Origin: a virus
Direction: 5' to 3' (one strand)
UHGV virus genome: UHGV-0380352
DNA: 25,338 nucleotides
The notes under the pieces were generated by a model. That model searched no databases. It was not told the origin of the DNA and saw nothing but the letters and a program-made list of their open reading frames with translations. Made by a program: the position numbers and the translations under genes. Positions 3,541 to 5,163 of this stretch are shown in pieces. Every line of letters begins with the position of its first letter. The stretch's first letter is position 1.

Positions 3541-3767
3541 AATGAATTATCATCATGAAGAATCGGTGACATTTCCGGATGCCTGTTTGCTCTAATTTTA
3601 ACCATGCATTACCTCTAGTGTAATCATGCTAATTTTGAGATGAATGATAAATTTAGTGATCTACGTCACTCTGAAAACCCTACAAATAGCTCTATGTTTA
3701 CCAATAGTATAGATTAGGGGGCCAGTCTAGGGGCATTATGGTCATTTCATCCTGATGAGGTTTTATT

Positions 3768-3965
3768 GTGATAAAAGTTGGAATTTCTACTATGCGGATT
3801 TTCGGTCCGATTGCTGTAATTTCTGGTTTTGCTATCTCTAGTGGGTTACTACCCATGCCTTCAAGCCTGTTCAGATATGCCATACTAACTGCAGATGTCA
3901 TGGTTGTAGCATTCTGGATCCTTGATGAAATTAACAATTTTAAAAATAACAAAACCAAAAATTAG
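3768..3965 (+). CDS. Hypothetical small hydrophobic protein (65 aa), GTG start
   Basis: GTG start 7 nt downstream of GAGG (3757-3760); two hydrophobic stretches (IFGPIAVISGFAISSGLL and VMVVAFWIL); AT-rich; same strand as and 35 bp upstream of the acyltransferase. No recognisable family. A minus-strand ORF (3698-3958) overlaps it, so coding status is uncertain. Confidence 0.3.
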   Translation: MIKVGISTMRIFGPIAVISGFAISSGLLPMPSSLFRYAILTADVMVVAFWILDEINNFKNNKTKN

Positions 3966-3999
3966 TTTATTAATTTAAATGTGTGTTCTGTTAATTTGA

Positions 4000-5163
4000 G
4001 TGAAACAAATGAATAACAAGTATCTTTTTGCACAATATTTAAGAGGGTTGGCTGCACTATCTGTCATGTTTGCGCATTTCGGGACGTCTTTTTTCAATGC
4101 TAACCCAATGCTCTCATCTTTCGTTAATGTTCCGCAAGTTGAAGACCGTTCTTACCCATGGCTTGTACAATTAGTGCCGGTTGACTTTCCTGGATTTATG
4201 GCTGTATTCGGCGTTGCAATATTTTTCATGATCAGCGGATTTGTTATCCCGATGTCAATTGAAAGATATAGTTTTACCACCTTCTTCTCTAAGCGTTTTT
4301 TCAGATTATTCCCTACTTACGCATTTGTTTTTACTCTTAACCTACTTGTTGCTGGCATAGGGTTTGCCATCTACCAAGGCAAAGGGGTTGAGTATGTTTA
4401 TAATTCTACAGACATAATTGGCTCGTATCTCATTGGATTAAATACTTACATTTCTGGAACTAGATGGCTAGACCCTGTCGCATGGACTCTGGGTGTGGAG
4501 ATATTATTTTATGTAGTAGCAGCTATCTATATGAATATCTCTTTCGCAATAAGAAAGGTTAAGGAAGTTAGTCTTTATGATGTCATTATACTGAGCGCTA
4601 TTCTTGATGTAGCGGCAATTAAACTTTCTAAATATTTTGATATAATCAGCAGCACATTCCCTTCCATAAATCTTGGCAGTGTCATTAAAGCTGTTTATCT
4701 GATTTCTTTCATGCTTCTTGGGACGACTTTCTTCCTTCATGCTAAAAAGAGAATTGGCTTACATGCACTAATTTACACCATCCTTATCCAGTATTTTGGA
4801 TTCGTTTATGTAAACATGCATATCCATCAAGCTGGCATGTATGTTGCAATAGTTCCTACTTTTAGCTGGTTTGCCATTACTATACTGGCATTTGCTCTCT
4901 GCTACTCAATAAACGATAAAATTAAAGAGCACAAGTTCGCTGGATTTATGGCTGACATTAGCTACCCGCTGTATCTTTGCCACTCATATATTGGCTATTT
5001 CTTGATGGGGGTAATTATAAGCTTTGGCATCTTGCCAAGATCGCTTGTTGTTTTCATACCATTTCCAGTGGCTATCGGCGTTGCATACCTCATACACAAA
5101 TACGTGGAAATGCCGACGCACAGAATGACTTTCTCAGGAATATTGAAACTCAAAAAGGCATAA
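4000..5163 (+). CDS. Integral-membrane acyltransferase, family 3 (O-antigen/polysaccharide O-acetyltransferase, Oac-like)
   Basis: 387-aa polytopic membrane protein with the hallmark Acyl_transf_3 motifs: N-terminal LRGLAALSVMFAHF (conserved Arg/His in TM1), FFMISGFVIP (FFxISGF) and RFFRLFPTY (RxxRLxP). Strongly AT-rich compared with flanking phage genes. Located between int and tailspike, where P22-like phages carry serotype-conversion genes. Confidence 0.8.
   Translation: MKQMNNKYLFAQYLRGLAALSVMFAHFGTSFFNANPMLSSFVNVPQVEDRSYPWLVQLVPVDFPGFMAVFGVAIFFMISGFVIPMSIERYSFTTFFSKRFFRLFPTYAFVFTLNLLVAGIGFAIYQGKGVEYVYNSTDIIGSYLIGLNTYISGTRWLDPVAWTLGVEILFYVVAAIYMNISFAIRKVKEVSLYDVIILSAILDVAAIKLSKYFDIISSTFPSINLGSVIKAVYLISFMLLGTTFFLHAKKRIGLHALIYTILIQYFGFVYVNMHIHQAGMYVAIVPTFSWFAITILAFALCYSINDKIKEHKFAGFMADISYPLYLCHSYIGYFLMGVIISFGILPRSLVVFIPFPVAIGVAYLIHKYVEMPTHRMTFSGILKLKKA

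What the first reader, a model, noticed from the sequence alone, without database searches (positions are those of the whole stretch)
3541..5163. AT-rich cargo island between int and tailspike encoding an Oac-like family-3 acyltransferase
The segment from the int stop to the convergent terminator is clearly more AT-rich than the flanking phage genes, which suggests separately acquired cargo. The 387-aa ORF has the diagnostic Acyl_transf_3 motifs (RGLAALSVMFAHF, FFMISGFVIP, RFFRLFPTY), the family that includes serotype-converting O-antigen acetylases such as Oac of Sf6. It occupies the attP-proximal slot where P22-like phages keep lysogenic conversion genes, so it is a strong candidate to alter the lysogen's surface polysaccharide.
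Basis: partly seen in the sequence, partly recalled or inferred. Interest (0 to 1): 0.55.

Follow-up and report, generated by a model that had tools for sequence, protein, structure and literature searches.

The report
Prophage O-antigen acyltransferase conversion cassette
An Sf6/P22-type prophage in E. coli carries, in the slot where such phages keep serotype-converting genes, a low-GC two-gene cassette (a tiny membrane protein plus a membrane acyltransferase) that most likely acetylates the host's O-antigen: a new example of a well-known phage trick, with two unusual neighbours worth following up.

Summary
Window 3541-5163 is the lowest-GC stretch of its size in the window (37.2% against a mean of 48.2%). 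It lies between an integrase 99.5% identical to Sf6 Int (prophage at tRNA-Arg argW) and a convergent tailspike, where Sf6 keeps oac.

Homology to sister prophages breaks at the int stop and the tailspike stop, so the island is a swappable cassette. It is Oac-like only at family level. Its nearest non-phage relative (57%) lies in a Salmonella ABC-transporter O-antigen cluster. That cluster is homologous to the O-antigen cluster of the one sequenced E. coli lineage carrying this island.

- A conserved orphan 65-aa two-helix membrane protein gene (3768-3965) precedes the AT gene in every prophage version.
- The neighbouring tailspike is an SGNH esterase of the c341/G7C deacetylase type.

Verdict: a new member of a known kind, an AT3-only lysogenic-conversion O-acyltransferase. 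Function is inferred, not shown. Interest is moderate.

The parts
2150..2224 (+). tRNA-Arg(CCT) argW, the prophage attachment site (attL side); context
   Evidence: ARAGORN and Rfam. Homology to Sf6 DNA starts at 2210, inside the tRNA 3' end.
2386..3540 (+). Integrase IntS (384 aa from ATG 2386; the ORF is open from GTG 2350); left boundary of the cassette
   Evidence: Pfam Arm-DNA-bind_3, Phage_int_M and Phage_integrase. 99.5% aa identity to Sf6 Int. DNA homology to Sf6, L012 and L002 ends at 3536.
3687..3715 (+). Tentative cassette promoter: TAGCTC-17 nt-TAGATT, a degenerate copy of an element found at the same position in other cassettes
   Evidence: Aligned upstream regions show T(C/A)GATC-17-TAGAAT/TATACT 30-61 nt before the small-ORF start in L019, L006, L010 and L020. 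The window copy matches the sigma-70 consensus poorly, and the generic scan did not report it. Inferred, not shown.
3757..3760 (+). Shine-Dalgarno GAGG for the small ORF
   Evidence: A GAGG/GGAG/TAGG lies 6-10 nt before the start codon in all seven cassette variants.
3768..3965 (+). Conserved orphan small membrane protein gene (65 aa, GTG start), predicted two-helix hairpin; first gene of the cassette
   Evidence: Homologues lie 40-50 bp upstream of, or overlap, the AT gene in E. coli, Yersinia, Cronobacter and another enterobacterial prophage. The alignment is ungapped. pS is 0.55-1.0 against pN 0.17-0.33 in this frame only. Only 12 clusters exist among 5.8e9 proteins, and 1 representative among 1.84e9. 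No Pfam, PHROG or NCBIfam match. AF2 predicts helices 8-24 and 33-64, pLDDT 83. Not annotated in RefSeq.
4009..5163 (+). AT3-only membrane O-acyltransferase (384 aa; the ORF is open from GTG 4000, giving 387 aa)
   Evidence: Pfam PF01757 at 83 bits. PHROG 3333. R12-X10-H23, FFMISG 72-77, R96xxR99 and WTLGVE 159-164 are invariant in the family. AF2 model is all-helical, pLDDT 90.7, pTM 0.89. No fused SGNH domain.
5166..5185 (+). Intrinsic terminator hairpin between the convergent AT and tailspike genes
   Evidence: Terminator scan: 8-bp stem, 5 GC pairs, T-run. ViennaRNA gives -15.3 kcal/mol for 5151-5200.
5187..7397 (-). Tailspike: P22-type head-binding domain (aa 1-113) plus an SGNH/GDSL esterase receptor-binding part; right boundary and probable functional counterpart of the cassette
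   Evidence: Pfam Head_binding 214 bits and Lipase_GDSL_2 43.8 bits. Catalytic blocks GDS 181-183, N261 and D344-x-x-H347. 31-42% identity to the g341c/c341 tailspike and about 33% to tail proteins of 71-72 kb phages I take to be G7C-like, and of about 39 kb phages. Relative to Sf6, homology resumes only at 7060, in the head-binding domain.

Best explanation
The island is a two-gene lysogenic-conversion (moron) cassette of an Sf6/P22-like prophage integrated at argW.

Proposed mechanism (inferred):
- The cassette is transcribed in the lysogen from its own weak promoter upstream of the small ORF, and ends at the hairpin at 5166-5185.
- The 384-aa AT3-only enzyme sits in the inner membrane. It takes an acyl group, most likely acetyl from acetyl-CoA, through its transmembrane pore using the R12/H23, FFMISG and R96xxR99 residues.
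- It esterifies a hydroxyl of the host's O-antigen on the periplasmic side.
- The change in O-antigen chemistry alters the serotype. It also keeps the phage's own receptor-binding protein, and other O-antigen-specific phages, from using the lysogen or its debris.

Shown here:
- gene integrity and family membership
- conservation of the catalytic motifs
- cassette boundaries and mobility
- position in the known conversion slot
- kinship with an O-antigen-cluster acyltransferase

Inferred:
- expression from the prophage
- acyl donor, acceptor sugar and position
- the effect on phage adsorption
- any role of the 65-aa protein. It is probably co-expressed, and may be an accessory of the enzyme or an independent membrane moron.
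For: Family and integrity:
- Pfam 83.3 bits, against a cut-off of 31, over the whole profile; PHROG O-acetyltransferase E 4.7e-37.
- The motifs published as defining or essential for AT3 carbohydrate acetyltransferases (R/K-X10-H, FFXISG, RXXR; PMC7448272) are present and invariant in 34 homologues.
- The AF2 model is confident and all-helical.
- hhalign aligns R96/R99 with Oac R73/R76, FFMISG with FFSISG, and WTLGVE with WTLPLE.

Slot:
- Int is 99.5% identical to Sf6 Int. The gene has the same position and orientation as Sf6 oac and the g341c acetylase, convergent with the tailspike and sharing a terminator.
- Relative to Sf6, the block 3537-7059 (cassette plus tailspike receptor-binding part) is replaced as a unit.

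Cargo:
- It is the lowest-GC segment of the window.
- Homology breaks at the int stop and the tailspike stop.
- The cassette also occurs at the ends of P22-like, Mu/P2-like and other prophages in Yersinia, Cronobacter and E. coli, always next to the receptor-binding protein genes.

Target:
- The 57% homologue P0014 closes a Salmonella wzm/wzt O-antigen-type cluster.
- Six proteins of that cluster are 58-84% identical to the rare O92-related O-antigen cluster of E. coli 23CRST047.
- 23CRST047 and its near-clone 23CRST049 are the only 2 of 5426 complete genomes with this island and this tailspike.

Comparative logic:
- In related temperate phages with SGNH tailspikes, the same slot holds an AT3 gene (g341c, L080, L088), a gtrABC glucosylation operon (L082, L084), or no recognised modification gene (L085, L086). 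The modification modules look interchangeable.
- In the P22-like coliphage Hf4s, a gtr cluster was shown to block re-adsorption of the same phage (bioRxiv 10.1101/2021.06.09.447823).
- The same is reported for Sf6 Oac and for BTP1 OafB (PMC9558356).
Against: - There is no expression or chemistry data.
- The window's promoter-like element is a poor sigma-70 match, and the generic scan did not report it.
- The window does not include its own O-antigen locus. The link to the O92-related cluster rests on one independent lineage (two near-clonal genomes).
- The neighbouring tailspike is an esterase. By analogy with G7C and c341, such spikes need O-acetyl groups (PMC10743462, PMC5380687). Adding acetyl is therefore not an obvious way to mask the receptor, unless it goes to a different position than the acetyl presumably installed by the chromosomal 340-aa AT3 of the O-antigen cluster.
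- The same tailspike (99%) occurs with AT alleles only 59-72% identical.
- The cassette also occurs with non-esterase myovirus tail fibres.
- AT3 proteins can transfer other acyl groups and act on other glycans (PMC9558356).
Confidence: 0.6

Rival explanations
1. Write/erase ('lock and key') pair. The prophage enzyme installs the very O-acetyl group that its own SGNH tailspike removes. The acetyl shields lysogens from foreign O-antigen-specific phages. Virions of this lineage keep the esterase 'key' and can still infect acetylated cells.
For: - An SGNH tailspike and an AT3 gene are adjacent and convergent in four separate lineages: this clade in three genera, g341c/NM-3, L080 and L088.
- Relative to Sf6, the cassette and the esterase receptor-binding part are exchanged as one block.
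- Esterase spikes of G7C and c341 depend on, or act on, O-acetyl groups.
- A PLoS Biol 2026 paper raises an acetylation/deacetylation interplay for Klebsiella prophages (PMC13123978).
Against: - The pairing is not obligate. Related SGNH-tailspike prophages carry gtrABC or no recognised modification gene in the slot (L082-L086).
- The cassette also sits beside non-esterase tail fibres.
- One tailspike (99%) goes with three divergent AT alleles.
- The carrier strain's O-antigen cluster already has its own AT3, which could supply the receptor acetyl.
Confidence: 0.15
2. The enzyme acylates a surface or periplasmic glycan other than the O-antigen: enterobacterial common antigen, capsule or colanic acid, osmoregulated periplasmic glucans, or peptidoglycan.
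For: - The AT (70-85%) and the tailspike receptor-binding part (75-81%) are conserved across E. coli, Yersinia enterocolitica and Cronobacter dublinensis. A glycan shared by these genera would explain this easily.
- AT3 enzymes are known for all these substrates (PMC9558356).
- There is a weak NCBIfam hit to OpgC/MdoC.
Against: - The OpgC hit is 26.9 bits against a cut-off of 338.
- The nearest non-phage relative is inside an O-antigen-type wzm/wzt cluster, homologous to the carrier strain's O-antigen cluster.
- The island and tailspike are restricted to 2 of 5426 E. coli genomes, both of one rare O-type. That argues against a common-antigen receptor.
- The slot is the classical O-antigen conversion slot.
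Confidence: 0.12
3. The two genes form a two-component system. The 65-aa hairpin protein is a required partner of the AT3-only enzyme (stability, acceptor presentation or final transfer), standing in for the SGNH domain that fused AT3 proteins carry.
For: - Adjacency is invariable in all 12 known small-protein clusters with an intact neighbourhood, across at least four prophage backbones. The stop and start overlap by 8 nt in L019.
- The small protein is under strong purifying selection.
- It has conserved intramembrane polar residues: T41, and D/N at position 43.
- The AT3 field explicitly asks whether AT3-only proteins need a partner (PMC9558356).
Against: - Divergence of the two proteins is uncorrelated across cassettes (r = -0.26, Mantel p = 0.90). 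For example, small protein 46% against AT 85%, and 84% against 68%.
- In L012-L015 the AT gene is inverted relative to the small gene.
- The 52-57% AT homologues P0014 and P0015, Sf6 Oac and more distant phage AT3 genes have no such neighbour.
Confidence: 0.2
4. The cassette is a silent or decaying remnant with no present function in this lysogen.
For: - The window's promoter-like element is degenerate: TAGCTC-17-TAGATT, and it has lost the GATC present in four sister cassettes.
- Prophage early regions in the sister strain contain pseudogenes.
Against: - Both ORFs are full length, with every family-invariant residue intact.
- The AT protein is 99.7% identical to its copy in strain 23CRST047, within a 7.4-kb block that is 99.1% identical, while the rest of the prophage differs.
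- The small gene is under purifying selection.
Confidence: 0.05

Closest known systems
Oac (OacA) of Shigella phage Sf6
   Same: - Same prophage type and integration module: Int 99.5% identical, argW.
- Same slot and orientation between int and the convergent tailspike, with a shared terminator.
- Same AT3-only architecture and the same motif set: R..H, FFxISG, RxxR, WTLxxE.
   Different: - Not orthologous. BLAST gives only a 44-aa local match. hhalign gives 95% probability over 148 columns at 28% identity.
- 384 aa against 333 aa.
- Sf6 has no small upstream gene.
- The Sf6 tailspike is an endorhamnosidase, not an esterase.
Salmonella phage g341c/c341 (and NM-3): gp15 O-antigen acetylase next to a deacetylase tailspike
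   Same: - P22-like phage with an SGNH-type tailspike 31-42% identical to this one.
- c341 spikes are reported to deacetylate O-antigen (Iwashita & Kanegasaki 1976, cited in PMC5380687).
- An AT3 gene sits convergent to the tailspike in the int-tailspike slot.
   Different: - The g341c enzyme is a 640-aa AT3-SGNH fusion, only 27% identical. It is accompanied by a GtrA-like gene, not by the 65-aa hairpin protein.
- The integrase is 61% identical.
OafA/OafB of Salmonella (AT3-SGNH O-antigen acetyltransferases)
   Same: Same AT3 domain with the experimentally essential R14/H25 and R69/R72 equivalents. OafB is prophage-borne and protects against its own phage's tailspike (PMC9558356).
   Different: No fused periplasmic SGNH domain here. 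Sequence similarity is at family level only.
Acyltransferase P0014 at the end of a Salmonella wzm/wzt polysaccharide (O-antigen-type) cluster; WbaK-like AT3-only enzymes encoded in O-antigen clusters
   Same: Closest non-phage relative: 57% identity over the full length, 388 aa, AT3-only. Its cluster is homologous to the carrier E. coli strain's O-antigen cluster.
   Different: Chromosomal cluster gene without the small upstream ORF. Uncharacterised.
Esterase tailspike gp63.1 of coliphage G7C (for the neighbouring gene)
   Same: SGNH esterase receptor-binding module. The window spike is about 33% identical, over 83-84% of its length, to tail proteins of 71-72 kb Shigella phages (B2, Moo19) that I take to be G7C relatives; the tool output does not name their genus. 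The catalytic S-N-D-H blocks are intact. G7C needs O-acetylated O-antigen.
   Different: Here the module is mounted on a P22 head-binding adaptor in a temperate phage, and it sits beside an acyltransferase.
gtrABC seroconversion clusters of P22-like phages (P22, Hf4s)
   Same: Same slot and the same presumed role. Related SGNH-tailspike prophages carry gtrABC where this one has the AT cassette. Hf4s lysogens no longer adsorb Hf4s.
   Different: Glucosylation through a three-protein bactoprenol pathway, rather than acylation.

Membership tests
Acyl_transf_3 (AT3, PF01757) carbohydrate O-acyltransferases | Whole-protein HMM score above the curated threshold | tested here: met
   83.3 bits against 31, profile positions 5-325 of 326. 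PHROG 3333 E 4.7e-37.
Acyl_transf_3 (AT3, PF01757) carbohydrate O-acyltransferases | R/K-X10-H motif in TMH1 (OafA R14/H25, essential) | tested here: met
   R12-X10-H23, invariant in 34 homologues. Definition from PMC7448272.
Acyl_transf_3 (AT3, PF01757) carbohydrate O-acyltransferases | FFXISG motif in TMH2 | tested here: met
   FFMISG at 72-77; F72, F73, S76 and G77 are invariant.
Acyl_transf_3 (AT3, PF01757) carbohydrate O-acyltransferases | RXXR motif (OafA R69/R72; Oac R73/R75) | tested here: met
   R96-F-F-R99, both invariant. The stretch aligns with Oac KRARR; in my count of Oac residues from the alignment, R96 pairs with R73 and R99 with R76.
Acyl_transf_3 (AT3, PF01757) carbohydrate O-acyltransferases | Polytopic all-helical membrane fold (about 10 TM helices) | tested here: met
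   AF2 pLDDT 90.7, pTM 0.89, helices throughout. Multiple hydrophobic segments. No solved structure is available for comparison.
Acyl_transf_3 (AT3, PF01757) carbohydrate O-acyltransferases | Acyl transfer to an extracytoplasmic glycan | not testable with these tools
   Needs NMR/MS of polysaccharides from strains with and without the gene.
Sf6 Oac / OacA orthologues | Close sequence relationship to Oac over the full length | tested here: not met
   BLAST gives a 44-aa local hit only. tblastn against 50,697 phage records finds only a Halomonas phage oatA at 26%. hhalign covers the N-terminal half at 28% identity.
Sf6 Oac / OacA orthologues | AT3-only architecture, encoded between int and the tailspike of a P22-like prophage at argW | tested here: met
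AT3-SGNH fused acetyltransferases (OafA, OafB, g341c gp15) | C-terminal periplasmic SGNH domain fused to the AT3 domain | tested here: not met
   384 aa with no GDSL/SGNH Pfam hit. 27% identity to the AT3 part of g341c gp15 only.
OpgC/MdoC (glucan succinyltransferase) | NCBIfam equivalog score | tested here: not met
   26.9 bits against a cut-off of 338.
Prophage lysogenic-conversion moron cassette | Discrete, compositionally distinct, exchangeable unit at the prophage end, with its own terminator and not part of the late operon | tested here: met
   GC minimum of the window. Homology breaks at 3536-3541 and 5187/5188. Three AT alleles occur between identical flanks. Terminator present.
Prophage lysogenic-conversion moron cassette | Expression in the lysogen from its own promoter | tested here: inconclusive
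   Only a weak, positionally conserved promoter-like element was found. The generic scan found nothing convincing. RNA data are needed.
SGNH esterase (deacetylase) tailspikes of the c341/G7C type (neighbouring gene) | GDSL/SGNH domain with intact Ser-Asn-Asp-His blocks, on a phage receptor-binding protein | tested here: met
   Lipase_GDSL_2 43.8 bits against 32.9. GDS 181-183, N261, D344/H347. Homology to the g341c tailspike and to tail proteins I take to be G7C-like. Activity not testable here.

The most novel reading that the evidence does not exclude
The invariably adjacent, orphan 65-aa two-helix membrane protein is a dedicated partner of this AT3-only enzyme. The cassette would then be a two-component O-acylation system. 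It would also give a natural test case for the open question of how AT3 proteins without a fused SGNH domain complete transfer to the acceptor. In addition, the cassette and the esterase tailspike could act as a phage-borne acetyl 'writer/eraser' pair on one O-antigen.
Probability: 0.2. Interest if true: 0.65.

Novelty: new member of a known kind. Interest (0 to 1): 0.4.

Why it matters
If the cassette works as inferred, it adds an uncharacterised serotype-converting O-acyltransferase lineage. The lineage is shared by prophages of E. coli, Yersinia enterocolitica and Cronobacter. It would alter O-antigen chemistry without any change at the O-antigen locus, which matters for in-silico serotyping, vaccine antigens and phage host-range prediction.

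Two features go beyond the textbook case:
- A strictly linked orphan membrane mini-protein, which could bear on how AT3-only enzymes work.
- The recurrent placement of an acetyl-adding enzyme next to an acetyl-removing tailspike. This offers a compact system for studying how acetylation state controls adsorption and superinfection.

The swap of AT alleles under a constant tailspike also shows how fast this slot is remodelled.

Tried and rejected
- Solved structures. A sequence search and Foldseek against the PDB gave nothing significant. BFVD gave only one AT3-SGNH phage protein. The structure adds no functional detail beyond the fold.
- Rfam scan of the whole window. Only the three tRNAs matched, and there was no RNA element in the island.
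- Generic promoter scan. Fewer hits than in the shuffles, and none well placed. Promoter assignment rests only on positional conservation.
- Is a small membrane ORF a general companion of phage AT3 genes? No. None of about 35 more distant viral loci has one, and the small-protein HMM hits only loci whose AT is at least 59% identical.
- Co-divergence of the small protein and the AT. Absent (r = -0.26, Mantel p = 0.90). This weakens the obligate-partner idea.
- Is the SGNH tailspike always paired with an AT3? No. An unbiased scan from the tailspike side found gtrABC or no recognised modification gene in several lineages.
- Search for the host-type O-antigen cluster in Yersinia and Cronobacter, through Wzm in species-representative genomes. 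Only remote hits in unrelated phyla, so uninformative.
- The antisense ORF 3698-3958 (86 aa) was rejected. The excess of synonymous over non-synonymous change is specific to the + frame of the 65-aa ORF and absent from the two shifted + frames; the minus-strand frame itself was not scored.
- The carrier strain's own O-antigen-cluster acyltransferase (340 aa) as the source of the prophage gene was rejected. There is no BLAST similarity beyond chance, although it is also AT3.
- OpgC identity was rejected.
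Full report
**1. Observation**

The window starts in E. coli chromosome: mlaA at 93-848, yfdC at 1142-2074 and tRNA-Arg(CCT) at 2150-2224. It then enters a P22-like prophage.
- The integrase ORF ends at 3540. A 736-aa tailspike gene runs on the minus strand from 7397 to 5187.
- Between them, 3541-5163 has GC 0.372, against 0.475 for int, 0.422 for the tailspike and 0.481 for the window.
- It is the lowest-GC 1623-nt stretch in all 25 kb (mean 0.482, sd 0.036).
- The ORF at 4000-5163 (387 aa; 384 aa from the ATG at 4009, which homologues and RefSeq use) scores 83.3 bits on Pfam Acyl_transf_3 (cut-off 31) over the whole profile. 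It also matches PHROG 3333 'O-acetyltransferase' at E 4.7e-37.
- The three quoted motifs are present.
- A clean hairpin terminator lies at 5166-5185, between the convergent genes.

**2. The enzyme**

Pearson et al. (PMC7448272) list the features shared by characterised AT3 carbohydrate acetyltransferases:
- an R/K-X10-H pair in TMH1 (OafA R14/H25, both essential)
- the FFXISG motif
- the RXXR motif (essential in OafA, OafB and Oac)

Here they are R12/H23, FFMISG 72-77 and R96/R99. All are invariant in a 34-sequence alignment reaching down to 26% identity.

An AlphaFold model built on that alignment is confident (pLDDT 90.7, pTM 0.89) and all-helical. No solved structure resembles it.

There is no fused SGNH domain, so this is an 'AT3-only' enzyme like Oac. 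It is not an Oac orthologue:
- BLAST finds only a 44-residue local match.
- tblastn against 50,697 phage genomes finds only a Halomonas phage gene at 26%.
- hhalign gives 95% probability over the N-terminal half.
- The OpgC equivalog model is far below threshold.

**3. The slot and the cassette**

- The integrase is 99.5% identical to Sf6 Int.
- DNA homology to Sf6 runs from 2210 (inside argW) to 3536. It resumes only at 7060, in the head-binding domain of the tailspike.
- Relative to Sf6, oac plus the endorhamnosidase part of the spike have been replaced by this cassette plus a different receptor-binding part.
- Sister E. coli prophages have the same int and the same tailspike (98.6-99%). In them, homology breaks at 3536-3541 and 5187/5188.
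- The AT protein between those breakpoints is 99.7%, 72% or 59% identical. In the 59% version it is inverted, with an IS3 element beside it.
- It is rare. The DNA occurs in 2 of 5426 complete E. coli genomes (near-clonal isolates from Ecuador) and in no sequenced phage.

**4.

ORF 3768-3965 (65 aa, GTG start) is not annotated in RefSeq.
- Homologues lie 40-50 bp upstream of the AT gene, or overlap its start by 8 nt, in the following contexts:
  - E. coli P22-like prophages
  - E. coli Mu/P2-like prophage remnants
  - Yersinia enterocolitica P22-like prophages next to surE
  - a Cronobacter dublinensis prophage
  - a P2-like prophage next to lepA
- The five first versions align without gaps. 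Synonymous sites are saturated (pS 0.55-1.0) while pN is 0.17-0.33, and this holds only in this reading frame.
- Every version has a Shine-Dalgarno sequence at the right distance.
- AlphaFold predicts a helical hairpin: helices 8-24 and 33-64, pLDDT 83.
- The family is an orphan. It has 12 clusters among 5.8 billion proteins and one true representative among 1.84 billion. It has no Pfam, PHROG or NCBIfam match.
- It accompanies only AT genes at least 59% identical to this one.
- Its divergence is not correlated with that of the AT (r = -0.26, Mantel p = 0.90).
- So it is a real gene, firmly linked in position, but I cannot show that it works with the enzyme.

**5. The neighbour**

- The tailspike combines a P22 head-binding domain with a GDSL/SGNH esterase domain. 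The catalytic blocks are intact: GDS 181-183, N261, D344/H347.
- Its receptor-binding part is 31-42% identical to the tailspike of Salmonella phage g341c (c341). It is about 33% identical to tail proteins of 71-72 kb phages that I take to be G7C-like, and of about 39 kb phages.
- c341 spikes deacetylate O-antigen (Iwashita & Kanegasaki 1976, as cited in PMC5380687).
- G7C gp63.1 is an esterase whose activity is essential. Host mutants lacking O-acetylation are resistant (PMC10743462).
- g341c also has an AT3 gene, of the fused AT3-SGNH type, convergent to its spike.
- A scan started from the tailspike side shows that the pairing is recurrent but not obligate:

| Lineage | Content of the int-tailspike slot |
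|---|---|
| L080, L088, g341c, this clade | AT3 gene |
| L082/L083, L084 | gtrABC operon |
| L085, L086 | no recognised modification gene |

**6. Target**

- The nearest non-phage relative (P0014, 57%) is the last gene of a Salmonella wzm/wzt polysaccharide cluster.
- The O-antigen cluster of E. coli 23CRST047, the complete genome that carries the island, is a rare ABC-transporter type. It occurs in 7 of 5426 genomes and is 74% identical in DNA to an 'O92 family' cluster.
- Six of its proteins are 58-84% identical to those of the Salmonella cluster.
- The tailspike DNA occurs only in the same two genomes.
- This ties the AT lineage and the spike to one O-antigen type. It rests on a single independent lineage, and the window's own strain is a different mosaic beyond 7412.
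- The carrier's O-antigen cluster ends with its own, unrelated AT3 gene. The O-antigen is therefore probably acetylated already.

**7. Mechanism**

I commit to the classical reading. The cassette is expressed in the lysogen, and the AT3 enzyme O-acylates (probably acetylates) the O-antigen on the periplasmic side. The altered O-antigen changes the serotype and interferes with receptor use by the phage's own spike and by other phages.

Supporting precedents are Sf6 Oac, BTP1 OafB (PMC9558356) and the gtr cluster of Hf4s. That gtr operons and AT3 genes replace each other in this slot next to homologous esterase spikes favours 'any blocking modification will do' over a specific writer/eraser coupling. 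Confidence is about 0.6.

The main unresolved tension is that esterase spikes need acetyl groups. The prophage enzyme would therefore have to act at another position than the presumed chromosomal one. Alternatively, the writer/eraser rival (0.15) is right. A non-O-antigen target (0.12) would explain the conservation across three genera, but it conflicts with the rarity of the island and with its O-antigen-cluster kinship.

**8. Novelty and score**

Prophage AT3 conversion genes between int and tailspike are textbook, and RefSeq already calls this protein an 'acyltransferase family protein'. This is a new, uncharacterised member of a known kind.

The linked orphan mini-protein and the acetyl-adding/acetyl-removing gene pair are the parts a specialist would want to test. 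Interest is 0.4.

Noticed in passing
window 3768-3965 (+): Conserved, unannotated 65-aa two-helix membrane protein gene directly upstream of the AT gene. It is an orphan family (12 clusters in 5.8e9 proteins), under purifying selection, and always adjacent to this AT clade in prophages of several genera.
   Followed up: yes
window 5187-7397 (-): The tailspike is not a glycosidase. It is an SGNH/GDSL esterase on a P22 head-binding adaptor, homologous to the deacetylating spike of c341/g341c and to tail proteins I take to be G7C-like. An acetyl 'eraser' is thus encoded tail-to-tail with a putative acetyl 'writer'.
   Followed up: partly
window 3541-5187 compared with L019 3619-5099 and L012 4391-7653: The same integrase and tailspike (98.6-99% identical) flank three different AT alleles (99.7, 72 and 59% aa identity). 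In the 59% version the AT gene is inverted relative to the small ORF, with an IS3-family element beside it (L013 4551-5671).
   Followed up: partly
L025 6998-17240 (E. coli 23CRST047, NZ_AP045820.1 4536997-4547239): The only complete-genome lineage with this island has a rare ABC-transporter O-antigen cluster (7 of 5426 genomes). The cluster is related to the 'O92 family' and to a Salmonella cluster (L016) that contains the AT's 57% homologue. It ends with its own unrelated 340-aa AT3 gene.
   Followed up: partly
window 3687-3715; L019, L006, L010 and L020 upstream of the small ORF: A positionally conserved promoter-like element, T(C/A)GATC-17-TAGAAT/TATACT, carries a Dam GATC site in its -35 region in four cassettes. 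The window copy reads TAGCTC and has lost the GATC. Possible methylation-sensitive expression; not examined further.
   Followed up: no
L023 5990-6148 and L024 254-412: In two assemblies the small ORF is truncated to 52 aa by insertion of a Mu-like transposable prophage (c repressor, Ner, MuA, MuB) right after int at argW.
   Followed up: no
window 23424-23579 (-): Prophage-borne tRNA-Thr(TGT) and tRNA-Asn(GTT), 5 nt apart. In the sister prophage they lie between the late antiterminator gene and the holin gene (L072 20853-21008).
   Followed up: no
L072 30310-32401 compared with window 12818-14707: In strain 23CRST047 an HNH endonuclease gene interrupts the region of the packaged-DNA stabilisation genes (gp4/gp10). 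The window's prophage has no such insertion. It also differs in gp16 length (665 against 613 aa) and in the needle gene (233 against 317 aa), so only the int-cassette-tailspike block (1-7412) is shared at 99%.
   Followed up: no
L080 6876-9669: Another SGNH-tailspike prophage (42% identical spike) has a free-standing 227-aa GDSL protein gene followed by a 611-aa AT3 gene of the g341c type, downstream of the spike.
   Followed up: no
L074 6001-11144: A 52% homologue of the AT lies at a prophage end, beside a second AT3 gene and a beta-helix (non-SGNH) tailspike. Two acyltransferases sit in one conversion slot.
   Followed up: no
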